Virus record (IMG/VR): IMGVR_UViG_2671180986_000015
Direction: 5' to 3' (one strand)
Origin: a virus
Lineage: Duplodnaviria; Heunggongvirae; Uroviricota; Caudoviricetes
Length of the DNA: 31,005 nt
The translations under genes and the position numbers were made by a program. This document shows positions 3,111 through 17,935 of this stretch, in pieces (the stretch's first letter is position 1; every line of letters starts with the position of its first letter). The notes below the pieces were generated by a model. That model was given only the letters and a program-made list of their open reading frames with translations. It was not told the DNA's origin and made no database searches.

Positions 3111-3151
3111 NNNNNNNNNNNNNNNNNNNNNNNNNNNNNNNNNNNNNNNNN
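3111..3151. other. N-masked run (41 nt) in the A-B intergenic region
   Basis: Literal n characters. Confidence 1.
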
Positions 3152-3178: not shown

Positions 3179-4162
3179 ATGACTGATATTGATGATGTTT
3201 TCAACACTATTAACGCTTTGATTAACGAGGGCGACAAGTCTCAGGAAGATANNNNNNNNNNNNNNNNNNNNNNNNNNNAAGATATTGCTGATGAAGCCGG
3301 AATGTCTCCGGCAACACTCTCGGCTCTGCGTAAAGGAGAGTACAACGGTAATGTCGAAGGTATGCATGACAAATTACAGAAATGGTATCAGGTCTGGCAG
3401 AAGGGACAGAACTTGTCAGGTACCCCTGGTGTTGTGAAGACCCAGACATTTTGTGATTTGCATGAGCTGTTTAAAACAGTGCGCTCACTCGGGATTATCA
3501 GTGTCGTTGTTGGCGTACCGGGTGTCGGAAAAACCTTTGCTGCCCGGGAATATTGTCGCAGGACAGCTAATGCCTGGATGGTGACTCTTGCTCCGGCACA
3601 TTCGAGCGTAACGGAATGCCTCCTTGAAATAGCATATGCGCTGGAAATTAATAATCCGGGAAGAAATAAGGGGAATATAACCCGCGCCATTCGCAGAAAA
3701 CTGGGTGGTGGTAAAGAAACCAGTGGCCGTGTTAACCCCCTTCTGATTATTGATGAAGCTGATCACTTAAGTGTGGATGGTCTGGAGCAATTACGCGCCA
3801 TTCAGGATGCCACTGGCGTGGGGATGGTTTTAATTGGCAACCCGAAACAGATGGCGGATGCCACCCGTCGTGGGACTGATGAACTGGCCCGTCTGTTCAG
3901 CCGTTTTGCCATGACAAAACAACTGCGCAAAGTAAAAAAGACCGATGTGATGGCTGTAGCCAAAGCATGGGGAGTAACACAGGAAGATGAGCTGGACCTG
4001 CTGATGAGGGTAGCCGAAAAGCCCGGGGGATTGCGTGTATTAACTCACACACTGAATCATGCGTGGCTGGCGGCAAAAGGTGCAGGCACATCCCTGAATA
4101 AAAGTCACATTAAAGCGGCTTTTAAGGAGGCTTACAGCAACCCCAGGTTACTGAACTGGTAG
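3179..4162 (+). CDS. B: MuB-like AAA+ ATPase (transposition target DNA activator)
   Basis: Walker A GVPGVGKT and Walker B LLIIDEADHL; GAGG RBS before ATG 3179; directly downstream of the transposase. Interrupted by a 27-nt N-run (3252-3278). Confidence 0.85.
   Translation: MTDIDDVFNTINALINEGDKSQEDXXXXXXXXXXDIADEAGMSPATLSALRKGEYNGNVEGMHDKLQKWYQVWQKGQNLSGTPGVVKTQTFCDLHELFKTVRSLGIISVVVGVPGVGKTFAAREYCRRTANAWMVTLAPAHSSVTECLLEIAYALEINNPGRNKGNITRAIRRKLGGGKETSGRVNPLLIIDEADHLSVDGLEQLRAIQDATGVGMVLIGNPKQMADATRRGTDELARLFSRFAMTKQLRKVKKTDVMAVAKAWGVTQEDELDLLMRVAEKPGGLRVLTHTLNHAWLAAKGAGTSLNKSHIKAAFKEAYSNPRLLNW
3252..3278. other. N-masked run (27 nt) inside B
   Basis: Literal n characters. Confidence 1.
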
Positions 4163-7928: not shown

Positions 7929-8480
7929 ATGAATCGCACATCCCTGATTAAATTAATTCATGTCGCCCGTCGTGATCTACAACTCGACGATGACACTTAC
8001 CGCGCCTTTCTGGTGCAGCACACGGGCAAAACCAGTTGCCGCGAGCTGTCCGTTGCACAACTGGAACGTGTGCTCGATGCCATGAAAGAGCGCGGTTTTA
8101 AGAAGCAGAAAAAACATCCCCGCCGTCGCTTTAAGGGGCATGTCACACCGCGCGAGAAGATTTATAAAATCTGGCAGCAGATGTTCCTTGATGGTTTCGT
8201 CTCCGATATCAGCGACGCTGCGCTGGACAAATACGTTGAACGCCTGACGGCCAGACGTAATGGCGGTCAGGGTGTTTCCACGCTGGCCTGGTGTCACGGG
8301 GAATCGTTGCATGTTGTGCTCGAAACGCTCAAACAGTGGCATATGCGCTGCATCCGGGAAGCCTTTGCCCGACATGGTGTGCCTTTACCTGTGAGCGAAA
8401 CCGGGCGGAAGCTGCGCGGCTATGATGCACTGACCAGTGCATATGCCCGCGCACGAAACAGCGGGAGAATTGCTGTATGA
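7929..8480 (+). CDS. gemA: GemA-like protein (Mu gp16 family)
   Basis: ATG 7929 with GGAGG 7 nt upstream (MNRTSLIKLIHVARRDLQLDDDTYRAF...); N-terminal motif and position immediately upstream of mor match Mu gemA as I recall it. Confidence 0.65.
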   Translation: MNRTSLIKLIHVARRDLQLDDDTYRAFLVQHTGKTSCRELSVAQLERVLDAMKERGFKKQKKHPRRRFKGHVTPREKIYKIWQQMFLDGFVSDISDAALDKYVERLTARRNGGQGVSTLAWCHGESLHVVLETLKQWHMRCIREAFARHGVPLPVSETGRKLRGYDALTSAYARARNSGRIAV

Positions 8481-8926
8481 AACAGATGAAAGAGCAGGAT
8501 TTATTCGAAGACTTCCGGGACGACAGCGTTCTGGAATACCTTAACGATTACCAGGAAAACACGGCTTATCCGGCGTTACTTTCTGAACTGAACGCACTGC
8601 TGCGTAAAGAGCTGGCCCGGATTGGCGCAGACCCTGCCCATTCCCTTGAGCTGGTTGTGGCGATTTGTCGCTATATCGGCGGGATGCAGGTTTATGTTCC
8701 GAGGGGGAATATTCTGGAGAATCTTGTCCGGGATATGCGTATCTGGCGTGATTTTAACGGCCATAATATTCCTGAACTGGTTCAGCGTTACGGGGTGACG
8801 TATAAAACCGTCTACAAGGCCATCAAGCGGATGCGGCGTCTGGAGTGTAATAAATACCAGCCGGATTTGTTTTACCACTCCCCGAACCTGCCTCACCCCG
8901 TTCGTCGTCCGCCACGACGTCCTTAA
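8477..8926 (+). CDS. mor: Mor/C-family transcription activator
   Basis: Start overlaps the gemA stop (ATGA). Contains PALLSELNALLRKELARIGADPAHSLELVVAICRYIGGMQVYVPRG and the C-terminal HTH YGVTYKTVYKAIKRMRR, characteristic of Mu Mor as I recall it. Confidence 0.88.
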   Translation: MKQMKEQDLFEDFRDDSVLEYLNDYQENTAYPALLSELNALLRKELARIGADPAHSLELVVAICRYIGGMQVYVPRGNILENLVRDMRIWRDFNGHNIPELVQRYGVTYKTVYKAIKRMRRLECNKYQPDLFYHSPNLPHPVRRPPRRP

Positions 8927-8933
8927 TCAATGA

Positions 8934-8956
8934 AGCCGGTAAATCCGGCTTTTTTT
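8934..8956 (+). terminator. Intrinsic terminator after mor
   Basis: Hairpin AGCCGG-TAAAT-CCGGCT immediately followed by a T7 run, starting 8 nt after the mor stop. Confidence 0.6.
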
Positions 8957-9011
8957 ATGCCTCCGGCACCATGAAGCAGACCACGTTTAAATCTGCTTCA
9001 CAGGTGCTTTT

Positions 9012-9599
9012 ATGGAAAATCAAAAATTCTCCCCGGCCTTTGAGTATGCGCTGAATTTTATTCTGCGTCCCGATATCGAAGGCGTCTATGTCAATGACCC
9101 CACTGACCGTGGCGGCGAAACCAGATACGGCATTTCTGACCGCCGCGACGGTGTGATTGACGGCAAAACCGATGTCAGCGGCGACGGTAAACCGGATACC
9201 CGCATCAGGGATTTAACCCGCGAACAGGTCGCGCAGATTTACTGGCGCGATTACTGGCTGCCTGCCGGATGTGACCAGTGGCCTGATGGCGTGGCGATGT
9301 TTGTGTTCGATGCGGCGGTTCAGCATGGCGTTAAAAAAGCTATCAGGATTTTGCAGGAAGCCGCTGATGTGGATGCTGACGGCATCATCGGTCCGCGTAC
9401 CCGTAAGGCAGTGAGCCTGTCCACCCCGGACTGGTTGCTGACCCGCTGCATTGTCCGTCGTTCCCGCTTTTATGCCGACATCATCAAATCCAAACCTGCC
9501 CAGGGCAAATACCTGAACGGCTGGTTTAACCGCATGGAGAAAGTGACCGACGCCTGTCTGGAAATTATCGACAACGTGTCGTCCGTCACGCGGGGATGA
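9012..9599 (+). CDS. Putative endolysin, GH108-like muramidase with peptidoglycan-binding domain
   Basis: N-terminal motif VYVNDPTDRGGETRYGI typical of GH108-family lysozymes; no N-terminal transmembrane or signal segment; first gene of the lysis/late block; AGGTG RBS. Confidence 0.75.
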   Translation: MENQKFSPAFEYALNFILRPDIEGVYVNDPTDRGGETRYGISDRRDGVIDGKTDVSGDGKPDTRIRDLTREQVAQIYWRDYWLPAGCDQWPDGVAMFVFDAAVQHGVKKAIRILQEAADVDADGIIGPRTRKAVSLSTPDWLLTRCIVRRSRFYADIIKSKPAQGKYLNGWFNRMEKVTDACLEIIDNVSSVTRG

Positions 9600-9671
9600 T
9601 ATGGCAAAGGCTGGGATGCCTCGCTGAGAGCCGGGCGGCGTGACCGCCTGCGTCAGGAGGTTTTACATCGT

Positions 9672-9827
9672 ATGGCCGGAGGTCCGCCCCCGAAACCGCT
9701 GGACTATACCGGTCATGACGGCACACACGCCAGCCACTACATGCGTGGCTGGAACACCGTGGATACACGGGACATTTTCTGGCAGTGCCAGAAGTACAAG
9801 GAAAAACTCAATGCACAGAATGAATAG
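9672..9827 (+). CDS. Candidate small ORF (51 aa) in the lysin frame downstream of the lysin TGA
   Basis: ATG 9672 preceded by AGGAGG (9655-9660, 11-nt spacer); good codon usage; ends at TAG 9825-9827 overlapping the start of the next gene. See findings for alternatives. Confidence 0.3.
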   Translation: MAGGPPPKPLDYTGHDGTHASHYMRGWNTVDTRDIFWQCQKYKEKLNAQNE

Positions 9828-10221
9828 TCTTTTTGTTCGCGTTATTTACTCCCGCTTTATGTTGTGCCAGTGGTCGTTTCTGGGGCTGTCGGCAGTCCTT
9901 TTTCTGGCGAGCTGTTTTGCCGGATGGCAGGCGTTTGCGGTCATGGTGCTGGCATACGGCGCGACACTCTGCCTGATTCACAGTTTCCAGCTGGGCAACG
10001 TACCTTATCGCCTGCAACCCAAAAGGCGTTTCCGGGCCGCCTCCCTTCGAATTGTCGTGTGGTCATGGGTGGTCTGGGTCGTTGGTTTTTTCATGCTGAC
10101 ATTCGGCCTTCTTTATCTGAAGGAGCCTTATCAGCTGGCGTTCTGGCTGGGCGGTATCTTTTGTGCGGCACTTTATAAACATCAGCGCCGTTTTCATAAG
10201 GGGGATTCATGGACCCGTTAA
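9811..10221 (+). CDS. Membrane protein with 3-4 predicted transmembrane segments, lysis-module member (holin candidate)
   Basis: ATG 9811 (or 9820) with AAGGA upstream; hydrophobic stretches FLGLSAVLFLASCFAGWQAFAVMVLAYGATLCLI, IVVWSWVVWVVGFFMLTFGLLYL, LAFWLGGIFCAALY. The longer GTG-9640 version in the ORF track was rejected on codon usage. Confidence 0.5.
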   Translation: MHRMNSLFVRVIYSRFMLCQWSFLGLSAVLFLASCFAGWQAFAVMVLAYGATLCLIHSFQLGNVPYRLQPKRRFRAASLRIVVWSWVVWVVGFFMLTFGLLYLKEPYQLAFWLGGIFCAALYKHQRRFHKGDSWTR

Positions 10222-10817
10222 CCCTTTCAGGCATCGCCTCCGTTCTGCTGAAAGCCGGGCCGGGGCTGATTCGTTCCGTCGGGCGCTGGTTTGGTGGCAG
10301 CACATCTGCCGCCGCTGACTCGGTGGCCGGTATGGTGGAAAGCGTCCGGGAAAGCCTGCCGGTGGCTGAACAGCAACGCATTCTGGAACAAAAACTGGTG
10401 ATGCTGTCACCGGAGCAACTGGTGCAGCTGGAAACCCTGAAAGTCCAGCTGCAACAGCTGGAGGTGGAGCGGCAGAAGCTGGTGCTGGCTGACCAGCAGG
10501 CCGCTCACCACGAACAACAGGAAACCATCCGCAACGGTGACAACGCCACGGACAGCTATGTGCGCCAGACGCGCCCGTTGCTGGCCCGTCTGTCCTGTTA
10601 CAGCAGTCTGGCCTATGTGCTGTTGCTCTCCTGTGGCCAGATTGCCGGTGCGGTTGCCGGTGCGAACGGTATCACGCTGCATATGCCGTCACCGGACTGG
10701 GATATCACGCTGATGTTGTTTACCCCGGCGCTGGGCTATCTCGGGGTAAGAACCCTTGACGGCTTTGCCCGTTACAGCAAATCGAGCTGTCACAAAATAT
10801 CAGCGGGGCCGAAATGA
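10209..10817 (+). CDS. Coiled-coil protein with C-terminal transmembrane segments (holin-like or lysis-associated)
   Basis: ATG 10209 overlapping the previous gene end; central heptad-like Q/L-rich region (LVQLETLKVQLQQLEVERQKLVLADQQ) followed by hydrophobic segments LAYVLLLSCGQIAGAVAG and ITLMLFTPALGYLGV. Confidence 0.5.
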   Translation: MDPLTLSGIASVLLKAGPGLIRSVGRWFGGSTSAAADSVAGMVESVRESLPVAEQQRILEQKLVMLSPEQLVQLETLKVQLQQLEVERQKLVLADQQAAHHEQQETIRNGDNATDSYVRQTRPLLARLSCYSSLAYVLLLSCGQIAGAVAGANGITLHMPSPDWDITLMLFTPALGYLGVRTLDGFARYSKSSCHKISAGPK

Positions 10818-11041
10818 CCGATGAAACCGACCGCATCAGTGAAGTGGTTTTAAACGAACGTCAGGACGTCGTTAACGCCTGGCTGATGCGGATAAAAGAA
10901 GCACCCCACAGTCGGGGCTTCTGCAATGACTGCGGTAACGTTATTCCGGCACAGCGCATTGCGGTGCTGCCGGATGTGGTGACCTGTATTGACTGCCAGC
11001 AGGCGCGGGAACGCAGGAGGAAGACGTGTCCTGGGAAGTGA
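10814..11041 (+). CDS. TraR/DksA-family C4 zinc-finger protein
   Basis: 75 aa with CNDCGNVIPAQRIAVLPDVVTCIDCQ (CxxC-17-CxxC), the TraR/DksA-type zinc finger pattern; start overlaps the previous stop (ATGA). Confidence 0.75.
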   Translation: MTDETDRISEVVLNERQDVVNAWLMRIKEAPHSRGFCNDCGNVIPAQRIAVLPDVVTCIDCQQARERRRKTCPGK

Positions 11042-11331
11042 TCCGGGCCAACTGGCCTGTTTTATGGGCGCTGTTGATGACAGCAATAAACCTGATTCAG
11101 CTGATTCTGGCGAAGACTTACGTCAAACGCGAAGAGTTTGATTCGCTGCGTTCCCGCGTGTCGGTGATGGAAGGCCTGGTGAATCAGTTACCCGACCGCA
11201 ATGAATTTCACCGCCTGCAACTGGATATCAGCAACCTGCGGGGTGAAATCAAAGAGCTGGGGCCATCCATCCGCCAGGTATCCCGCATCAGCGATTTGTT
11301 ATTAGAGAACGAATTAAAGGAAAAAAATTAA
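11026..11331 (+). CDS. N-terminally membrane-anchored coiled-coil protein (i-spanin-like topology)
   Basis: GTG 11026 with AGGAGG 5 nt upstream; N-terminal hydrophobic segment WPVLWALLMTAINLIQLIL followed by a charged helical region. Confidence 0.55.
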   Translation: MSWEVIRANWPVLWALLMTAINLIQLILAKTYVKREEFDSLRSRVSVMEGLVNQLPDRNEFHRLQLDISNLRGEIKELGPSIRQVSRISDLLLENELKEKN

Positions 11332-11624
11332 TGGCGATGAAAGAGATCCTCACTGAAGACCGTCGTCTGGTGTTGCTGCGTTCCCTGCTGGACTGTGGCG
11401 ACAGCGCGAATGAATCCGTGTTGCAGACCTGCCTTCAGGCCTACGGTCATAAGGTATCCCGTGATGTGGTGCGCACCCAGCTTGCATGGCTGCGCGAGCA
11501 GGGGCTGGTTCGTCTGTCTGATGTGGGCGGCTGTTACGTGGCTGAAATCACCGGCAGCGGCGAGGATGTGGCAAACGGCCTGTCCGGTGTGCCGGGCGTT
11601 AAAAAACCCCGTGCGAGGGACTGA
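11331..11624 (+). CDS. Hypothetical protein at the Mu gp26 position, possible winged-helix DNA binding
   Basis: ATG 11331 overlapping the previous stop; 97 aa; lies directly upstream of the terminase region. Confidence 0.55.
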   Translation: MAMKEILTEDRRLVLLRSLLDCGDSANESVLQTCLQAYGHKVSRDVVRTQLAWLREQGLVRLSDVGGCYVAEITGSGEDVANGLSGVPGVKKPRARD

Positions 11625-11626
11625 AC

Positions 11627-11887
11627 ATGGCCCGAAAACTGAAGCCGTTAAGTCGTGGAGAACGGGCCGTCGTGCGGCAGCTGGCGTACTGCCTTGTGCT
11701 GGCAGACATTGAGCAAAACGCCATTGTCCGTGCATACGAAAAACATACAGGAAAGCCCTGGAACCCGGATGCACCGGATACCCCCGTGAAACGTGCCCTG
11801 CGTTCATCACCGGCATATGCGCGGCTGTGGAAGCTGCCAGGTAAGGATATTCAGTCCGTTCGTGAAGAAATATACGCTGGTCTGAAA
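11627..11887 (+). CDS. 5-prime fragment of a gp27-position gene (possible terminase small subunit), truncated by masking
   Basis: ATG 11627 with GAGGGA 6 nt upstream; ORF runs into the N-run at 11888. Functional call is positional only. Confidence 0.45.
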
Positions 11888-12798
11888 NNNNNNNNNNNNN
11901 NNNNNNNNNNNNNNNNNNNNNNNNNNNNNNNNNNNNNNNNNNNNNNNNNNNNNNNNNNNNNNNNNNNNNNNNNNNNNNNNNNNNNNNNNNNNNNNNNNNN
12001 NNNNNNNNNNNNNNNNNNNNNNNNNNNNNNNNNNNNNNNNNNNNNNNNNNNNNNNNNNNNNNNNNNNNNNNNNNNNNNNNNNNNNNNNNNNNNNNNNNNN
12101 NNNNNNNNNNNNNNNNNNNNNNNNNNNNNNNNNNNNNNNNNNNNNNNNNNNNNNNNNNNNNNNNNNNNNNNNNNNNNNNNNNNNNNNNNNNNNNNNNNNN
12201 NNNNNNNNNNNNNNNNNNNNNNNNNNNNNNNNNNNNNNNNNNNNNNNNNNNNNNNNNNNNNNNNNNNNNNNNNNNNNNNNNNNNNNNNNNNNNNNNNNNN
12301 NNNNNNNNNNNNNNNNNNNNNNNNNNNNNNNNNNNNNNNNNNNNNNNNNNNNNNNNNNNNNNNNNNNNNNNNNNNNNNNNNNNNNNNNNNNNNNNNNNNN
12401 NNNNNNNNNNNNNNNNNNNNNNNNNNNNNNNNNNNNNNNNNNNNNNNNNNNNNNNNNNNNNNNNNNNNNNNNNNNNNNNNNNNNNNNNNNNNNNNNNNNN
12501 NNNNNNNNNNNNNNNNNNNNNNNNNNNNNNNNNNNNNNNNNNNNNNNNNNNNNNNNNNNNNNNNNNNNNNNNNNNNNNNNNNNNNNNNNNNNNNNNNNNN
12601 NNNNNNNNNNNNNNNNNNNNNNNNNNNNNNNNNNNNNNNNNNNNNNNNNNNNNNNNNNNNNNNNNNNNNNNNNNNNNNNNNNNNNNNNNNNNNNNNNNNN
12701 NNNNNNNNNNNNNNNNNNNNNNNNNNNNNNNNNNNNNNNNNNNNNNNNNNNNNNNNNNNNNNNNNNNNNNNNNNNNNNNNNNNNNNNNNNNNNNNNNN
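11888..12798. other. N-masked run (911 nt)
   Basis: Literal n characters; hides the end of the gp27-like gene and the start of the large terminase. Confidence 1.
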
Positions 12799-14043
12799 CG
12801 GCACTGACCGCATCACTGAAGAAGGAAAACGGCGGGCGCGATCACTTTTACATCGGTTCGAACAAGGAGATGGCCCGCGAATTTATCGACGCCGTGGCGA
12901 TGTGGGCAAAAGCGTTTAATGCAGCCGCGGAAGAAATCCGCGAGGAAGTGATCACCGACGAAGACAAGGACATTCTGACGTTCGTCGTGTACTTCGCCAG
13001 CGGATTTAAGGTCAAGGCGCTGTCCAGTAATCCGGGCAACATTCGCGGGATGCAGGGGAATGTCACCATCGACGAAGCGGCGTTTCATGAAAAGCTGGAT
13101 GAGGTACTCAAGGCGGTCACACCACTGACCACGTGGGGCGGTAAGGTTCGCCTTATCTCCACCCATGACGGCGTGGACAACCCGTTTAACCAGCTGATTC
13201 AGGAAAGCCGCGCGGGCAAAAAAGATTACCGTATTCACACCATCACGCTGGATGACGCCTGTAATGACGGGCTGTACCGGCGTATCTGTCAGGTGCGCGG
13301 CATGGTGTGGTCACCGGAAGCCGAGGTGGAATGGAAAGAAGGCCTGCTGCGAAATACCGCCACCCGCGAAGATGCGCTGGAGGAGTATTACTGCGTCCCG
13401 AAAAACGGCGGCGGCACGTATATCCCCCGCTCACTGCGTGAACGTGCGGCCCGTGGCACCGGAAAAGTGTTGCGCTTTACCGGCACACCGGAATTTAACG
13501 CACTGACGGAAGGCCAGCGCCGGGCAGAGATCAGGGAATGGCTGGAAACGGTGGTGCGCCCTGAGCTGGAAAAACTCCCGAAGAATCTGCGCCACTGTCT
13601 GGGGGAAGACTTTGCGCGTTCGGGTGACCTGACCGTGCTGGCCCCGGTGACGGTGAACGACGACACCACCCGCGAGGTGCCGTTTCTGGTTGAGCTTGCC
13701 AATGTGCCGTTTAAACAGCAGGAGCAGGTGCTGTTCTGGCTTTGCGATCGTCTGCCCCGTCGTGACGGTATCAAAATGGATGCGCGGGGTAATGGTCAGT
13801 ATCTGGCAGAACAGGCGGCAGAACGATACGGCGACGAGGTGGAACAGGTGATGCTGTCCGTGGCGTTCTACCGCGAAAACATGCCCCGTTTCCGTGCGGC
13901 GTTTGAAGATGATGAGCTGATCCTTCCGAAGCATGAAGATGTGATCAATGACCTCGGGGCCATTCAGTTACTGCGTGGCGTTCCCGGTATTGACGATGCC
14001 CGTACTAAAGGCAGTGATGGCCGCAAGCGTCACGGCGACGCCG
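12799..14043 (+). CDS. Terminase large subunit (internal fragment, both ends masked)
   Basis: Frame is open from the first unmasked base; large ORF immediately upstream of the portal gene; Mu gp28 position. The N-terminal ATPase motifs are hidden in the masked run, so the call rests on size, position and general similarity. Confidence 0.75.
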
Positions 14044-14159
14044 NNNNNNNNNNNNNNNNNNNNNNNNNNNNNNNNNNNNNNNNNNNNNNNNNNNNNNNNN
14101 NNNNNNNNNNNNNNNNNNNNNNNNNNNNNNNNNNNNNNNNNNNNNNNNNNNNNNNNNNN
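14044..14159. other. N-masked run (116 nt)
   Basis: Literal n characters. Confidence 1.
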
Positions 14160-14234: not shown

Positions 14235-15845
14235 GTGNNNNNNNNNNNNNNNNNNNNNNNNNNNNNNNNNNNNNNNNNNNNNNNNNNNNNNNNNNNNNNN
14301 NNNNNNNNNNNNNNNNNNNNNNNNNNNNNNNNNNNNNNNNNNNNNNNNNNNNNNNNNNNNNNNNNNNNNNNNNNNNNNNNNNNNNNNNNNNNNNNNNNNN
14401 NNNNNNNNNNNNNNNNNNNNNNNNNNNNNNNNNNNNNNNNNNNNNNNNNNNNNNNNNNNNNNNNNNNNNNNNNNNNNNNNNNNNNNNNNNNNNNNNNNNN
14501 NNNNNNNNNNNNNNNNNNNNNNNNNNNNNNNNNNNNNNNNNNNNNNNNNNNNNNNNNNNNNNNNNNNNNNNNNNNNNNNNNNNNNNNNNNGGTGGCCGCC
14601 AGTGATGACGATGCCGACGTGCAGCTGGCGGACGCCATCCGTGCGCTGATGGAAGCCCCGCAAATCCCCGAACTGATGTTTGATTTGCTCGACGGGCTGG
14701 GAAAAGGCGTGGCGGTCTGTGAAATCCTGTGGGACACCCGCAACAACCACTGGATGCCCCGTGATTATGAGTGGGTTGATCCCCGTTTTCTGAAAGCCGA
14801 AAAGCCCACGCTGCGCCAGTTCCGCCTGCTGACGGACGATGAACCGGTGGATGGCGTACCGCTGACACCGGGAAAATTCATTGTTCACCAGCCGCGTCTG
14901 AAATCCGGTCTGCCGCTGCGTAACGGTCTGGCCCGTCTGGTGGCTGTGATGTACATGCTGAAATCCTTTACCGTGCGCGACTGGTGGGCATTTGCGGAAA
15001 AATTCGGCATTCCGGTTACGGTGGGGAAATACGGTCCCAACGCCACGGAGGAGCAAATCCGCGTGCTGATTGATGCGATTGCCTCCATTGCCTCGGATGC
15101 CGGGTGTGCCATTCCGCAGTCCATGCAACTGGAGATGCAGGAAACCGCCAGCCGGAATAACGGCGGCGCACTGTTCCGTGAAATGGCGGAATGGTGCGAT
15201 GCGCAAATCAGTAAGGCTGTGCTGGGGCAGACCATGACCACGGATAACGGCAGTTCGCGTTCACAGGCGGACGTGCACAATCAGGTGCGCATGGACATTG
15301 TGCGCTGGGACGCGCGACAGCTGGCTAACACGCTGAATGAATATCTGGTGCGGCCCTACATCGAGGCCAACTACGGGCCACAGGCGCACTACCCCCGTGT
15401 TGTTCTGCGTATCAGTGAAGCCGAAGATCTGAAGGCGCTGACGGATGCTCTGGTGCCGCTGATTGACCGGGGGATGCGGGTTCAGGAATCGGAGCTGCGG
15501 GACCGGTTCGGCCTGGCTGAGCCAGACGAAGGGGCTGATGTTCTGCATCCGGTTTCCGCCGGGATGCCGGGTGATATGGCGATGAACCGCGAGCGCGTCG
15601 CCCTGAACAGGGAACACCCCGACGAACTGGCACAGATGGTGGATGATGCCCTGCGTGACTGGCAGAAAACCGGCGAGGCGTTCACGAACCCGGTGCTGAC
15701 ACTGGCGCAGGAGTGCGACAGTTTTGATGACTTTCTGAAACGCCTGCCTGAGCTTCAGGAAACGCTGAACGCGGACGACTTTGCCCTGCAACTGGCGGAG
15801 GTGTGCTTTAAGGCGCGTGCGCTGGGAGACACTGCTCATGCGTGA
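14235..15845 (+). CDS. Portal protein (Mu gp29-like)
   Basis: GTG 14235 preceded by GAGGGAGG; long ORF whose visible part is 14591-15845; its stop overlaps the start of the F-like gene. The 5-prime end and frame are uncertain because of the masked run at 14238-14590. Confidence 0.75.
   Translation: MXXXXXXXXXXXXXXXXXXXXXXXXXXXXXXXXXXXXXXXXXXXXXXXXXXXXXXXXXXXXXXXXXXXXXXXXXXXXXXXXXXXXXXXXXXXXXXXXXXXXXXXXXXXXXXXXXXXXXXVAASDDDADVQLADAIRALMEAPQIPELMFDLLDGLGKGVAVCEILWDTRNNHWMPRDYEWVDPRFLKAEKPTLRQFRLLTDDEPVDGVPLTPGKFIVHQPRLKSGLPLRNGLARLVAVMYMLKSFTVRDWWAFAEKFGIPVTVGKYGPNATEEQIRVLIDAIASIASDAGCAIPQSMQLEMQETASRNNGGALFREMAEWCDAQISKAVLGQTMTTDNGSSRSQADVHNQVRMDIVRWDARQLANTLNEYLVRPYIEANYGPQAHYPRVVLRISEAEDLKALTDALVPLIDRGMRVQESELRDRFGLAEPDEGADVLHPVSAGMPGDMAMNRERVALNREHPDELAQMVDDALRDWQKTGEAFTNPVLTLAQECDSFDDFLKRLPELQETLNADDFALQLAEVCFKARALGDTAHA
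14238..14590. other. N-masked run (353 nt) inside the portal gene
   Basis: Literal n characters. Confidence 1.
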
Positions 15846-16206: not shown

Positions 16207-16450
16207 NNNNNNNNNNNNNNNNNNNNNNNNNNNNNNNNNNNNNNNNNNNNNNNNNNNNNNNNNNNNNNNNNNNNNNNNNNNNNNNNNNNNNNNNNNNNNN
16301 NNNNNNNNNNNNNNNNNNNNNNNNNNNNNNNNNNNNNNNNNNNNNNNNNNNNNNNNNNNNNNNNNNNNNNNNNNNNNNNNNNNNNNNNNNNNNNNNNNNN
16401 NNNNNNNNNNNNNNNNNNNNNNNNNNNNNNNNNNNNNNNNNNNNNNNNNN
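16207..16450. other. N-masked run (244 nt)
   Basis: Literal n characters. Confidence 1.
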
Positions 16451-16467
16451 ACCATTCACACCGAAGC

Positions 16468-16876
16468 NNNNNNNNNNNNNNNNNNNNNNNNNNNNNNNNN
16501 NNNNNNNNNNNNNNNNNNNNNNNNNNNNNNNNNNNNNNNNNNNNNNNNNNNNNNNNNNNNNNNNNNNNNNNNNNNNNNNNNNNNNNNNNNNNNNNNNNNN
16601 NNNNNNNNNNNNNNNNNNNNNNNNNNNNNNNNNNNNNNNNNNNNNNNNNNNNNNNNNNNNNNNNNNNNNNNNNNNNNNNNNNNNNNNNNNNNNNNNNNNN
16701 NNNNNNNNNNNNNNNNNNNNNNNNNNNNNNNNNNNNNNNNNNNNNNNNNNNNNNNNNNNNNNNNNNNNNNNNNNNNNNNNNNNNNNNNNNNNNNNNNNNN
16801 NNNNNNNNNNNNNNNNNNNNNNNNNNNNNNNNNNNNNNNNNNNNNNNNNNNNNNNNNNNNNNNNNNNNNNNNNNNN
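16468..16876. other. N-masked run (409 nt)
   Basis: Literal n characters; only a 17-nt island (16451-16467) separates it from the previous run. Confidence 1.
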
Positions 16877-16910: not shown

Positions 16911-17935
16911 ATGCAACCGGAACTGCTGGCGCTGTGTTTTTCCCTGCCAGAACCCATCCCTGAGCTGACACCCGCTCAACTGCCGGAATGGCTTGAACTC
17001 GTTCCTGCGGGTGAGTTCACCGGGCGCGATGGCCGGACGTGGATGAACCGCAATCCACATGAGGTGGTTGCCCGTTCGTCCGACATCAACATTCCGGTGG
17101 ACATTGAACATGCCACCGAAATTAAAGGCCCGCGGGGTGAAGAGGCTCCGGCGTATGGCTGGGTGGAAGCACTGCGGGTGACGGACAGCGGCACCATTGA
17201 AGGGCGTGTTGTCTGGAGTGAGTCCGCCCGGTGGATGCTGAGCGAGCGCCGCTACCGCTATTACAGCCCGGCGTTTTTCCATGACGCAGACGGTGCGGTG
17301 ACNNNNNNNNNNNNNNNNNNNNNNNNNNNNNNNNNNNNNNNNNNNNNNNNNNNNNNNNNNNNNNNNNNNNNNNNNNNNNNNNNNNNNNNNNNNNNNNNNN
17401 NNNNNNNNNNNNNNNNNNNNNNNNNNNNNNNNNNNNNNNNNNNNNNNNNNNNNNNNNNNNNNNNNNNNNNNNNNNNNNNNNNNNNNNNNNNNNNNNNNNN
17501 NNNNNNNNNNNNNNNNNNNNNNNNNNNNNNNNNNNNNNNNNNNNNNNNNNNNNNNNNNNNNNNNNNNNNNNNNNNNNNNNNNNNNNNNNNNNNNNNNNNN
17601 NNNNNNNNNNNNNNNNNNNNNNNNNNNNNNNNNNAGAAAAACGCCTTCAGCAACTGGAAGAGAAGGAAGCCGAGGCGCTTGTGGATGCGGCCATCGGGGC
17701 CGGAAAAGTCGCCCCGGCAAACCGTGACATGTTCCTTGCCACCTGCCGCACGGAAGAAGGCCGCAAACAGTTTGCGGAGTACACCAAAGGTGCACAGCCG
17801 CTGGTTAACAACGACAAGCCCAGCCAGGGCAAGGATAAACCCGCGCAGACACTGACCGATGCCGAACTGGCGATGTGTCGCAGCATGGGGATTACCGGGG
17901 AAGAGTTCCTCGCCGCTAAACCGAAACAGGAGTAA
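16911..17935 (+). CDS. Protease/scaffold protein, Mu I/Z-like
   Basis: ATG 16911 with GGAGA upstream. After the masked run the reading frame resumes (EKRLQQLEEKEAEALVDAAIGAGKV...) and ends at TAA 17933-17935, 7 nt before the major head gene. The frame relation across the gap is unknown. Confidence 0.7.
17303..17634. other. N-masked run (332 nt) inside the protease/scaffold gene
   Basis: Literal n characters. Confidence 1.

What the first reader, a model, noticed from the sequence alone, without database searches (positions are those of the whole stretch)
10814..11041. TraR/DksA-type zinc-finger gene embedded in the lysis/late module
The C4 zinc-finger pattern is clear in the sequence. TraR/DksA-like proteins act on RNA polymerase through the secondary channel. 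One sitting at the head of the late region, in a phage that lacks a separate C activator at the usual place, is a plausible modulator of host or late transcription. Mu itself does not carry this gene at that position, as far as I recall.
Basis: partly seen in the sequence, partly recalled or inferred. Interest (0 to 1): 0.45.

Follow-up and report, generated by a model that had tools for sequence, protein, structure and literature searches.

The report
TraR-type RNA polymerase regulator in Mu-like prophage
This is a real, already annotated gene for a small TraR-type zinc-finger protein that most likely binds the host RNA polymerase, and its place in the lysis cassette is the normal one for this group of Mu-like prophages, so it is ordinary but experimentally unstudied.

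Summary
Window 10814..11041 (+) encodes a 75-aa protein with CxxC-17-CxxC. It passes Pfam zf-dskA_traR (41.9 bits against a cut-off of 24.9) and matches PHROG_54 over its full length. Its best solved relative is F-plasmid TraR bound to RNA polymerase.

It keeps the residues shown experimentally to matter in TraR: D3, D6, R48, the 31-residue tip-to-zinc spacing and the C-terminal helix. Two things differ. A8 is Ile, as is tolerated in the functional P2 Orf82. The three beta'Si3 contacts E46/R49/K50 are A/I/A.

dN/dS is 0.09-0.40. The window is an E. coli Mu-like prophage, and RefSeq already names this protein "TraR/DksA C4-type zinc finger protein".

The gene is the fifth gene of the endolysin operon, not its head. 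It is translationally coupled to a 202-aa membrane protein upstream and to a DUF2730 (Mu gp25 "releasin" family) gene downstream. That arrangement holds in 78 of 79 related viral loci.

Only one Mor/C-family activator is present, directly upstream of the operon, so TraR need not stand in for C. Mu has a 64-aa zinc-ribbon gene (gp24) in the same slot that lacks the TraR determinants.

Verdict: a new member of a known kind, of modest interest.

The parts
10814..11041 (+). TraR-family gene (75 aa): N-terminal helix with D3/D6 tip, C4 zinc knuckle, C-terminal helix
   Evidence: Pfam PF01258 E=1e-10; PHROG_54 E=5e-18; F TraR is the best PDB hit by sequence and by fold; AF2 model pLDDT 78 with H3-27, zinc knuckle, H59-71; dN/dS 0.09-0.40; RefSeq WP_000129102.1 'TraR/DksA C4-type zinc finger protein' in a 99.8% identical prophage
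10209..10817 (+). Upstream partner gene (202 aa, membrane protein, PHROG_1544, weak GTA-holin-3TM similarity); its TGA overlaps the TraR ATG (ATGA)
   Evidence: hydrophobic segment 134-152. The homolog lies directly upstream of TraR in nearly all 80 viral loci. The Pfam GTA_holin_3TM hit is below the gathering score (18.7 against 24.8 bits), so the holin call is tentative.
11026..11331 (+). Downstream partner gene, DUF2730 (Mu gp25 'releasin' family): N-terminal TM helix plus coiled coil; GTG start overlaps the last 16 nt of TraR; AGGAGG Shine-Dalgarno at 11015..11020 lies inside the TraR coding sequence
   Evidence: Pfam PF10805 E=9e-30; 18 of 19 non-redundant downstream neighbours are DUF2730; 78 of 79 DUF2730-seeded loci have TraR upstream; releasin function shown for Mu gp25 in PMC9239132; sequence read
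9012..9599 (+). First gene of the operon: GH108 endolysin with PG_binding_3 domain and no N-terminal TM/SAR segment
   Evidence: Pfam PF05838 E=2e-23 and PF09374 E=2e-17; PHROG_315 endolysin; no hydrophobic segment
9811..10221 (+). 136-aa hydrophobic protein (PHROG_12596) within the lysis cassette, between the endolysin and the 202-aa protein
   Evidence: RefSeq CDS WP_005144138.1 in the near-identical prophage
8477..8926 (+). The only Mor/C-family activator gene in the window, the probable activator of the operon that contains the TraR gene
   Evidence: Pfam PF08765 E=4e-30; PHROG_532 late transcriptional activator; 61% identical to Mu Mor and 32% to Mu C, with no second copy by tblastn
8932..8960 (+). 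Hairpin plus T-run after the Mor gene: a terminator-like element about 27/33 identical to Mu's mor/Pm junction, so the likely end of the early transcript and part of a Mor-dependent promoter for the lysis operon
   Evidence: Terminator scan; sequence; alignment with Mu and Kp4866-3. A Mor dimer binds an inverted repeat centred at -43.5 of Pm (PMC4390567). The promoter assignment is an inference.
11331..11624 (+). gp26-like gene (PHROG_436; RefSeq 'VpaChn25_0724 family phage protein'), the next gene of the same tightly packed operon

Best explanation
The gene encodes a short-form TraR-family protein. It has one long N-terminal helix with an acidic tip, a C4 zinc knuckle and a C-terminal helix. 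By homology it binds host RNA polymerase without binding DNA. The helix enters the secondary channel so that D3 and D6 reach the active-site region. R48 contacts the beta' rim helices and the C-terminal helix contacts the beta lobe/Si1. The expected result is ppGpp-independent inhibition of promoters with short-lived open complexes (rRNA and ribosomal-protein promoters), which diverts polymerase and resources to the phage, as shown for lambda Orf73 and four other homologs. Here the gene has no promoter of its own. It is co-transcribed and translationally coupled within the endolysin-to-terminase operon that follows the single Mor-type activator gene, so the protein appears only after Mor-dependent transcription starts, together with the lysis and head proteins. 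Shown here: family membership, conserved determinants, fold, selection, operon position and synteny. Inferred: RNAP binding, inhibition of host promoters and timing of expression.
For: Family and fold. Determinants defined in PMC9239242 and PMC6970531: D3 and D6 are present; R48 is invariant; P45, P53, Q62 and E66 are conserved. The spacing from tip Asp to first Cys is 31 residues, the same as F TraR and 43 of 55 clade members. A8 is Ile, but P2 Orf82 also lacks A8 and still binds RNAP, inhibits rrnB P1 (IC50 250 nM) and complements a dksA deletion. All five homologs tested in that paper bound RNAP and inhibited rrnB P1. Purifying selection. Operon placement: ATGA and 16-nt overlaps, no sigma-70-like promoter in 8300..11900, contiguous CDSs in RefSeq. 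The host is E. coli, whose RNAP carries the Si1 and Si3 insertions that TraR uses.
Against: No experiment exists for any member of the Mu-like clade (literature searches). The beta'Si3 contact triad E46/R49/K50 is A46/I49/A50 here and A-or-P/L/A in the clade consensus, and P43 is Val (P43A weakens RNAP binding in TraR). So affinity and the balance between activation and inhibition may differ from F TraR. All characterised phage homologs sit in early or regulatory regions, not in a lysis cassette. Making a host-transcription inhibitor this late leaves less time for it to matter. The near-obligate coupling to two membrane proteins is not explained by this model.
Confidence: 0.7

Rival explanations
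1. Partner-dependent or lysis-coupled TraR. The protein acts in a complex with one of its translationally coupled neighbours, either the cytoplasmic coiled coil of the DUF2730 releasin-family protein or the 202-aa membrane protein. Either the partner potentiates or sequesters its action on RNAP, as QisA does for TraR of phage VP882, or the zinc-ribbon protein itself tunes the timing of lysis.
For: The triad 202-aa protein / TraR / DUF2730 is almost invariant: 78 of 79 DUF2730-seeded loci and 18 of 19 non-redundant TraR-seeded loci, with overlapping start and stop codons. It extends to Rheinheimera and Motilimonas, and TraR plus DUF2730 to Edwardsiella, Methyloversatilis, Vibrio and Shewanella. 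VP882 TraR forms a complex with the product of the co-transcribed gene qisA, which greatly strengthens growth arrest. The hydrophobic residue at position 49 tracks the DUF2730 context: 52 of 54 in the clade, against mostly Arg outside that context. Mu keeps a zinc-ribbon gene in the same slot although the TraR determinants are gone.
Against: Conserved adjacency in a compact phage operon is common without physical interaction. The Mu lysis study that defined gp25 as a releasin does not mention gp24 at all. QisA is not shown to be related to either neighbour. DksA itself has Leu at the position equivalent to 49, so that residue needs no special explanation.
Confidence: 0.12
2. One reading: the protein is a co-activator of the phage's own late promoters, compensating for the missing C protein by changing RNAP kinetics at Mor-dependent promoters.
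For: Only one Mor/C-family gene is present. TraR strongly activates F-plasmid promoters needed for conjugation in vitro, and the authors note that some homologs might regulate promoters on their own phages.
Against: The gene lies inside the operon it would have to switch on, so it could at most give positive feedback. The Si3-contact residues linked to activation are all absent. [quoted passage not shown] Shewanella phage MuM16-2 and Vibrio phage martha also annotate a single Mor-type activator in the stretches examined, in the same gene order, which fits a two-step cascade that needs no extra factor.
Confidence: 0.1
3. A zinc-ribbon protein that has drifted away from RNAP regulation and now has another role or none, as may have happened to Mu gp24.
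For: Not all C4 zinc-finger proteins classed as TraR/DksA act like DksA. Mu gp24 in the same slot lacks D3/D6, R48 and the C-terminal helix.
Against: Unlike gp24, the window protein retains every core determinant, and these are invariant or nearly so across 54 distinct clade members (D6, R48 and Q62 in 54/54, E66 in 53/54). dN/dS is well below 1.
Confidence: 0.08

Closest known systems
TraR of the E. coli F plasmid (73 aa; PDB 5W1S, 6N57)
   Same: Same length class and architecture. Collinear alignment of residues 2-70 with 2-70. D3, D6, the four Cys with identical spacing, P45, R48, P53, Q62 and E66 are shared, and the tip-to-zinc distance of 31 residues is identical.
   Different: About 34% identity. 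A8 is Ile, P43 is Val, and the beta'Si3 contact triad E46/R49/K50 is A/I/A. It is encoded in a phage lysis/late operon rather than a conjugation operon.
Lambda Orf73, P2 Orf82, VHML Orf8, VP882 Orf61 and X. bovienii Gp34 (experimentally tested phage TraR homologs, PMC9239242)
   Same: Phage-borne short TraR proteins. P2 Orf82 shares the missing A8 and is still active. The proposed role, reprogramming host transcription for phage production, is the same.
   Different: The four whose context is described are encoded in early or regulatory regions. The window gene is in the endolysin-terminase operon behind the Mor-type activator. The paper states that all tested homologs have equivalents of both R48 and R49; the window protein has only R48.
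TraR of phage VP882 with its partner QisA (bioRxiv 10.64898/2026.07.27.740977)
   Same: A phage TraR that is co-transcribed with an adjacent gene of unknown function. It is a precedent that a TraR can work as a complex.
   Different: The VP882 genes are under the cI-repressed PR promoter. No relationship between QisA and the window's neighbours was shown, and no interaction has been tested here.
E. coli DksA (151 aa)
   Same: Same zinc-knuckle and C-terminal-helix module. The hydrophobic residue after R48 (Ile here) matches DksA's R-L. The acidic tip is analogous.
   Different: DksA has a two-helix coiled coil and needs ppGpp. The window protein has a single helix and no room for the ppGpp site-2 residues.
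Mu gp24 (64 aa, hypothetical protein, NP_050628.1)
   Same: Same genomic slot, immediately upstream of the DUF2730 gene. CxxCG-17-CxxC with identical spacing. hhalign aligns it in register with the TraR profile (P=2e-4, probability 47%). The modelled zinc knuckle superposes on DksA-family knuckles at 0.6-1.0 A, and TraR is its top PDB hit, though not significantly (E=0.28).
   Different: It fails Pfam PF01258. The tip reads E3/N6 rather than D3/D6. It has no R48 and no C-terminal helix, and its N-terminal helix is about 10 residues shorter. With the Cys fixed, 7.6% of shuffles score as well against the TraR profile, so homology is unproven.
KS10 gp7 (Burkholderia transposable phage), Vibrio phage martha 12B12 VPCG_00028, Shewanella phage MuM16-2 p23, Klebsiella phage Kp4866-3
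   Same: DksA/TraR zinc-finger genes in Mu-like phages, between the lysis genes and the small terminase subunit gene.
   Different: 30-49% identity for the three found by tblastn; KS10 was not found by that search. None has been characterised experimentally.

Membership tests
TraR family (short-form TraR/DksA, Pfam PF01258) | C4 zinc-binding motif CxxC-(17)-CxxC and a profile score above the curated cut-off | tested here: met
   C37, C40, C58, C61. PF01258 scores 41.9 bits against a cut-off of 24.9, E=9.9e-11. PHROG_54 E=5e-18.
TraR family (short-form TraR/DksA, Pfam PF01258) | TraR-like length (~73 aa) with a single N-terminal helix, a globular zinc domain and a C-terminal helix | tested here: met
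   75 aa. AF2 model (pLDDT 78) has H3-27, a zinc knuckle and H59-71. The best fold match is TraR 6n57_M over 71 columns, TM about 0.5.
TraR family (short-form TraR/DksA, Pfam PF01258) | The two N-terminal aspartates of the DxxDxA motif (D3, D6), required for function in TraR and lambda Orf73 | tested here: met
   The protein starts MTDETD. D6 is present in 54/54 and D3 in 45/54 clade members. The requirement is from PMC9239242.
TraR family (short-form TraR/DksA, Pfam PF01258) | Alanine of the DxxDxA motif (A8) | tested here: not met
   I8 in the window protein. Ile occurs in 12 of 54 clade members and 14 of 97 short homologs. P2 Orf82 also lacks A8 and is functional with about 5-fold lower activity.
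TraR family (short-form TraR/DksA, Pfam PF01258) | R48, which contacts the beta' rim helices at the mouth of the secondary channel | tested here: met
   R48 is present and invariant in alignment A1 and in 54/54 clade members.
TraR family (short-form TraR/DksA, Pfam PF01258) | beta'Si3 interface residues E46, R49 and K50, which contribute to activation but not inhibition | tested here: not met
   A46, I49 and A50 in the window protein; clade consensus A-or-P46, L49, A50. Roles of these residues are from PMC6970531. DksA has Leu at the position equivalent to 49.
TraR family (short-form TraR/DksA, Pfam PF01258) | Helix length that places the acidic tip at the active site (tip Asp to first Cys = 31 residues in F TraR) | tested here: met
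   31 residues in both the window protein and F TraR.
TraR family (short-form TraR/DksA, Pfam PF01258) | Direct binding to RNAP, ppGpp-independent inhibition of rrnB P1, and complementation of a dksA deletion | not testable with these tools
   These need biochemistry and genetics. No published test of any Mu-like clade member was found.
DksA proper | Two-helix coiled coil carrying the ppGpp site-2 residues; length about 150 aa | tested here: not met
   75 aa with a single N-terminal helix. The DksA alignment covers only the zinc domain and C-terminal helix, residues 31-72 against 108-149.
Mor/C family of Mu transcription activators (PF08765) | Mor-family fold with a C-terminal helix-turn-helix that binds promoter DNA | tested here: not met
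   The TraR-like protein has no PF08765 match. The only Mor-family gene in the window is 8477..8926.
Orthology with Mu gp24 | Same slot upstream of the DUF2730 gene, plus sequence or fold similarity beyond the cysteine spacing | tested here: inconclusive
   Same slot. hhalign P=2e-4 and probability 47%. Cys-fixed shuffles reach the score in 153 of 2000 trials. TraR is the top fold hit but with E=0.28.

The most novel reading that the evidence does not exclude
The Mu-like-phage TraR proteins form a distinct subfamily. They keep the inhibitory core (D3/D6, R48, C-terminal helix) but have replaced the beta'Si3 contact triad, and they are locked in a translationally coupled triad with a holin-like membrane protein and the DUF2730 releasin-family protein. 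In this reading the TraR works with, or is held at the membrane by, one of these partners, so that shut-off of host transcription is coupled to the lysis programme. This would be a second example, in a different phage group and a different regulatory phase, of the partner-dependent TraR action just reported for VP882 QisA-TraR. Mu gp24 would then be a remnant that kept only the partner-binding zinc ribbon.
Probability: 0.12. Interest if true: 0.6.

Novelty: new member of a known kind. Interest (0 to 1): 0.28.

Why it matters
TraR homologs are the best-understood example of mobile elements reprogramming host RNA polymerase without ppGpp, but every one tested so far is expressed early or from a regulatory region. 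This clade is widespread. The operon segment around the gene (window 8400..11700) is found in about 50 of 5,426 complete E. coli genomes, and TraR relatives occur in many IMG/VR Mu-like contigs and in Klebsiella, Vibrio, Shewanella and Rheinheimera. It would be the first case of a TraR made from the lysis/late operon, and it naturally lacks the Si3 contacts. It is therefore a ready-made natural variant for asking whether inhibition alone is what phages need. In practical terms the result is a correct annotation with a refined context, not a discovery.

Tried and rejected
1. The search for related loci with the broad TraR alignment A1 and the broad DUF2730 alignment A3 failed because no stretch was conserved enough. 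It was repeated with the tighter alignments A2 and A5.

2. I looked for an own promoter for the gene. There is no sigma-70-like site in 8300..11900. This fits activator-dependent transcription but does not prove it.

3. I considered the terminator-like hairpin at 11044..11059, just after the TraR stop, as an attenuator. It has a weak 6-bp stem, lies inside the DUF2730 coding sequence, and the scan over-calls (14 found against 2.2 expected). I did not pursue it.

4. I tested whether Mu gp24 is a TraR homolog in five ways: Pfam (no hit), hhalign (P=2e-4), Cys-fixed shuffles (not significant), an AF2 model and a fold search (TraR top, E=0.28). The result is inconclusive, so it is not claimed.

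5. I considered the idea that hydrophobic residue 49 marks an activation-defective protein. This was softened because DksA itself has Leu there.

6. I tried to place the -10 element and start site of the Pm-like promoter by eye from the Mu alignment. This was not reliable, so only the junction homology is reported.

7. I searched for a second Mor/C gene with Mu Mor, Mu C and the window's own Mor protein by tblastn. None was found in the unmasked sequence. The masked N-runs lie in the transposase, terminase, portal and head regions, not where C would be.
Full report
OBSERVATION. The ORF at 10814..11041 (+) is real: 75 codons from ATG to TGA. It encodes MTDETDRISEVVLNERQDVVNAWLMRIKEAPHSRGFCNDCGNVIPAQRIAVLPDVVTCIDCQQARERRRKTCPGK, with cysteines at 37, 40, 58 and 61. 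It passes Pfam zf-dskA_traR (PF01258, E=9.9e-11, 41.9 bits against a gathering score of 24.9). It matches PHROG_54 'DksA-like zinc-finger protein' over essentially its whole length (E=5e-18). Among solved structures the best sequence match is F-plasmid TraR, aligned collinearly at residues 2-70 to 2-70 (5w1s_M, E=5.7e-7), followed by YbiI and DksA. An AlphaFold2 model built on 80 homologs (mean pLDDT 78) has a helix at 3-27, a zinc knuckle and a helix at 59-71. Its best PDB fold match is TraR in the RNAP-bound cryo-EM structure 6n57, followed by DksA and DksA2. Against 11 distinct alleles from related prophages, dN/dS is 0.09-0.40. No other ORF in the six-frame translation of the window matches the TraR profile.

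WHERE THE WINDOW COMES FROM. The window is a Mu-like transposable prophage. It carries a repressor, transposase A and B, Gam, a gp16/GemA-family gene, a Mor-family gene, lysis genes, terminase, portal, head and tail genes. The region 8400..11700 is 99.8% identical to a prophage in E. coli FDAARGOS_943. It is found in 50 of 5,426 complete E. coli genomes. RefSeq already names the protein 'TraR/DksA C4-type zinc finger protein' (WP_000129102.1). The protein database holds near-identical entries named C4-type zinc finger TraR from Shigella sonnei and E. coli.

ANATOMY OF THE NEIGHBOURHOOD. The single Mor-family gene (8477..8926) is followed by a strong hairpin and T-run (8932..8960) and a gap of about 60 bp. 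Then comes a run of abutting or overlapping genes:
- a GH108 endolysin (9012..9599);
- two small ORFs, including a 136-aa hydrophobic protein (9811..10221);
- a 202-aa membrane protein (10209..10817, PHROG_1544, with only sub-threshold similarity to GTA 3-TM holins);
- the TraR gene;
- a DUF2730 gene (11026..11331);
- a gp26-like gene (11331..11624), then the terminase genes.

The stop codon of the 202-aa gene overlaps the TraR start (ATGA at 10814..10817). The GTG start of the DUF2730 gene lies 16 nt before the TraR stop, and its AGGAGG lies inside the TraR coding sequence. No sigma-70-like promoter is detected anywhere in 8300..11900. The TraR gene is therefore an internal, translationally coupled member of the endolysin operon, about 1.8 kb from its start, and not at its head. 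DUF2730 is the family of Mu gp25, shown to be a 'releasin' required for release of Mu's SAR endolysin (PMC9239132). 'Embedded in the lysis module' is therefore accurate.

HOW GENERAL IS THE ARRANGEMENT. A scan of IMG/VR with a TraR alignment gave 186 confirmed relatives, of which 80 loci were kept. In nearly all of them a ~200-aa ORF ends on the TraR start and a ~100-aa ORF overlaps its end. Of 19 non-redundant downstream ORFs, 18 are DUF2730. The upstream ORFs form one family, 6 of 19 with weak GTA-holin similarity. Starting instead from DUF2730, 78 of 79 window-type loci have a TraR-profile hit immediately upstream; the one exception is cut by a contig end. The same order is annotated in Vibrio phage martha 12B12 and Shewanella phage MuM16-2. 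A dksA/traR gene in the equivalent place was noted for Burkholderia phage KS10 in 2008. In species-representative genomes the triad, or TraR plus DUF2730, recurs in Rheinheimera, Motilimonas, Edwardsiella and Methyloversatilis. The position is thus the norm for this clade and not a peculiarity of this prophage.

MU ITSELF. Mu has gp24 (64 aa, 'hypothetical protein') in exactly this slot, directly upstream of gp25/DUF2730. All 17 Mu-proper loci from IMG/VR carry it. Its sequence has CxxCG-17-CxxC with the same spacing as TraR, and an N-terminus MNEDQNRA. It does not pass Pfam. hhalign places its zinc ribbon in register with the TraR profile (P=2e-4, probability 47%). However, when the cysteines are held fixed, 153 of 2000 shuffles score as well. 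A model (pLDDT 76) shows a shorter N-terminal helix (3-17), the same knuckle pattern and almost no C-terminal helix. Its top PDB hit is again TraR, but with E=0.28, and its knuckle superposes on DksA-family knuckles at 0.6-1.0 A. gp24 therefore occupies the same position and may be a degenerate relative. It lacks D3/D6, R48 and the C-terminal helix, the features whose absence goes with lack of DksA-like function in other proteins. It misses that the slot is occupied by a zinc ribbon.

FUNCTIONAL DETERMINANTS. The Gourse and Darst laboratories defined three elements (PMC9239242, PMC6970531). These are the N-terminal DxxDxA tip that reaches the active site, a zinc domain whose R48 binds the beta' rim helices and whose E46/R49/K50 contact beta'Si3, and a C-terminal helix that contacts beta Si1.
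- Kept in the window protein: D3, D6, R48, P45, P53, Q62, E66 and the helices.
- Kept spacing: the distance from the tip Asp to the first Cys is 31 residues, as in F TraR.
- First deviation: A8 is Ile. P2 Orf82 also lacks A8, yet it binds RNAP as well as TraR, inhibits rrnB P1 with about 5-fold lower potency and complements a dksA deletion.
- Second deviation: the Si3 triad is A46/I49/A50, and P43 is Val. In TraR the single substitutions E46A, R49A and K50A leave inhibition nearly intact but halve activation, and P43A weakens binding.

Across 54 distinct proteins from the Mu-like context, D6, R48 and Q62 are invariant and E66 is present in 53. The triad is consistently A-or-P/L/A. Homologs outside a DUF2730 context mostly carry Arg-Arg. 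DksA itself has Arg-Leu at 48-49, so the hydrophobic residue is DksA-like and is not proof of an activation defect.

MOST LIKELY MECHANISM. By homology, the protein binds E. coli RNAP in the secondary channel and inhibits rRNA and ribosomal-protein promoters without ppGpp, freeing polymerase and resources for the phage. This was shown for lambda Orf73, which slows host growth and raises burst size, and for four other homologs. Its capacity to activate is uncertain. It is made only once the Mor-dependent operon is on, together with the lysis and packaging proteins. Family, fold, determinants, selection and operon structure are shown here. RNAP binding, promoter effects and timing are inferred. 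Confidence is about 0.7.

THE 'MISSING C' ARGUMENT. tblastn with Mu Mor, Mu C and the window's own Mor protein finds one Mor/C gene only, 61% identical to Mor and 32% to C. So there is indeed no separate C. However, the hairpin and T-run after this gene are about 27/33 identical to the sequence just after Mu mor and unlike the Mu C-lys junction. In Mu, the mor-gp18 gap holds the middle promoter Pm, where a Mor dimer binds an inverted repeat centred at -43.5. The simplest reading is a shortened cascade in which the Mor-type protein directly drives the lysis/late operon. Shewanella phage MuM16-2 and Vibrio phage martha likewise annotate a single Mor-type activator in the stretches examined, in the same gene order. 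Nothing requires the TraR protein to replace C. [quoted passage not shown] A feedback effect on phage promoters cannot be excluded (about 0.1).

A MORE INTERESTING POSSIBILITY. A July 2026 preprint shows that TraR of phage VP882 forms a complex with the product of the adjacent co-transcribed gene qisA. This strongly enhances growth arrest and still depends on the DxxDxA motif. The near-obligate, translationally coupled triad found here could reflect a comparable partnership with the DUF2730 coiled coil or the 202-aa membrane protein, coupling transcription shut-off to the lysis programme. So could the persistence of a bare zinc ribbon in Mu. I could not test this with the tools available, and conserved adjacency alone is weak evidence (about 0.12).

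VERDICT. The finding is a correctly recognised TraR-family gene, already annotated as such, in the usual position for its phage clade. It is a new, uncharacterised member of a known kind. Its modest interest comes from its late/lysis-operon context and its natural loss of the Si3 contacts. Interest 0.28.

Noticed in passing
window 8932..8960 and 8477..8926: The hairpin and T-run after the only Mor/C-family gene (GAAGCCGGTAAATCCGGCTTTTTTTATGCC) are about 27/33 identical to the sequence right after Mu mor (the early terminator / Pm region) and to Klebsiella phage Kp4866-3, and unlike Mu's C-lys junction. The endolysin operon therefore seems to be driven directly by a Pm-like, Mor-dependent promoter, with Mu's middle operon (gp18-20, C) absent.
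   Followed up: partly
L001 3025..3219 (Mu NC_000929 11524..11718, gp24): Mu gp24, annotated hypothetical, is a 64-aa CxxCG-17-CxxC zinc-ribbon protein in the slot that TraR occupies in other Mu-like phages. It may be a degenerate TraR relative, but homology is not statistically demonstrable. One database variant (P0167) has lost the fourth cysteine.
   Followed up: yes
window ~9603 (G-run just after the ATG at 9601): The window lacks one G relative to the 99.8% identical E. coli FDAARGOS_943 prophage (ATGGGC becomes ATGGC). This frameshifts the 75-aa gene that follows the endolysin at codon 2. Only a 51-aa ORF from an internal ATG (9672..9827) remains. It may be a sequencing error or a real inactivation of a small lysis-cassette gene.
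   Followed up: partly
window 11044..11059: A weak terminator-like hairpin (CGGGCCAACTGGCCTG followed by TTTTAT) starts 3 nt after the TraR stop codon, inside the DUF2730 coding sequence. It is probably chance, because the scan over-calls in this region (14 found against 2.2 expected).
   Followed up: no
window 3111..3151, 3252..3278, 11888..12798, 14044..14159, 14238..14590, 16207..16450, 16468..16876, 17303..17634: Runs of N mask parts of the transposase, terminase, portal and head region. ORFs listed across them, such as 11627..12919, are artefacts of the masking.
   Followed up: no
window 10209..10817 and homologs in L005-L084: The 202-aa protein upstream of TraR (PHROG_1544) is highly conserved, with many near-invariant residues, an N-terminal amphipathic region, a coiled-coil-like middle and C-terminal hydrophobic segments. 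It has only sub-threshold similarity to GTA 3-TM holins. It may be the holin of these phages, whose GH108 endolysin has no SAR or signal segment.
   Followed up: partly
L186, L190, L193, L195-L198 compared with L005-L084 and L184-L189: The residue after the invariant R48 tracks genomic context. It is Leu, Ile or Val in 52 of 54 TraR proteins next to DUF2730. It is mostly Arg (the F-TraR state) in homologs without a DUF2730 neighbour (Neisseria, Deefgea, Undibacterium, Burkholderiales). The sequences are not phylogenetically independent.
   Followed up: partly
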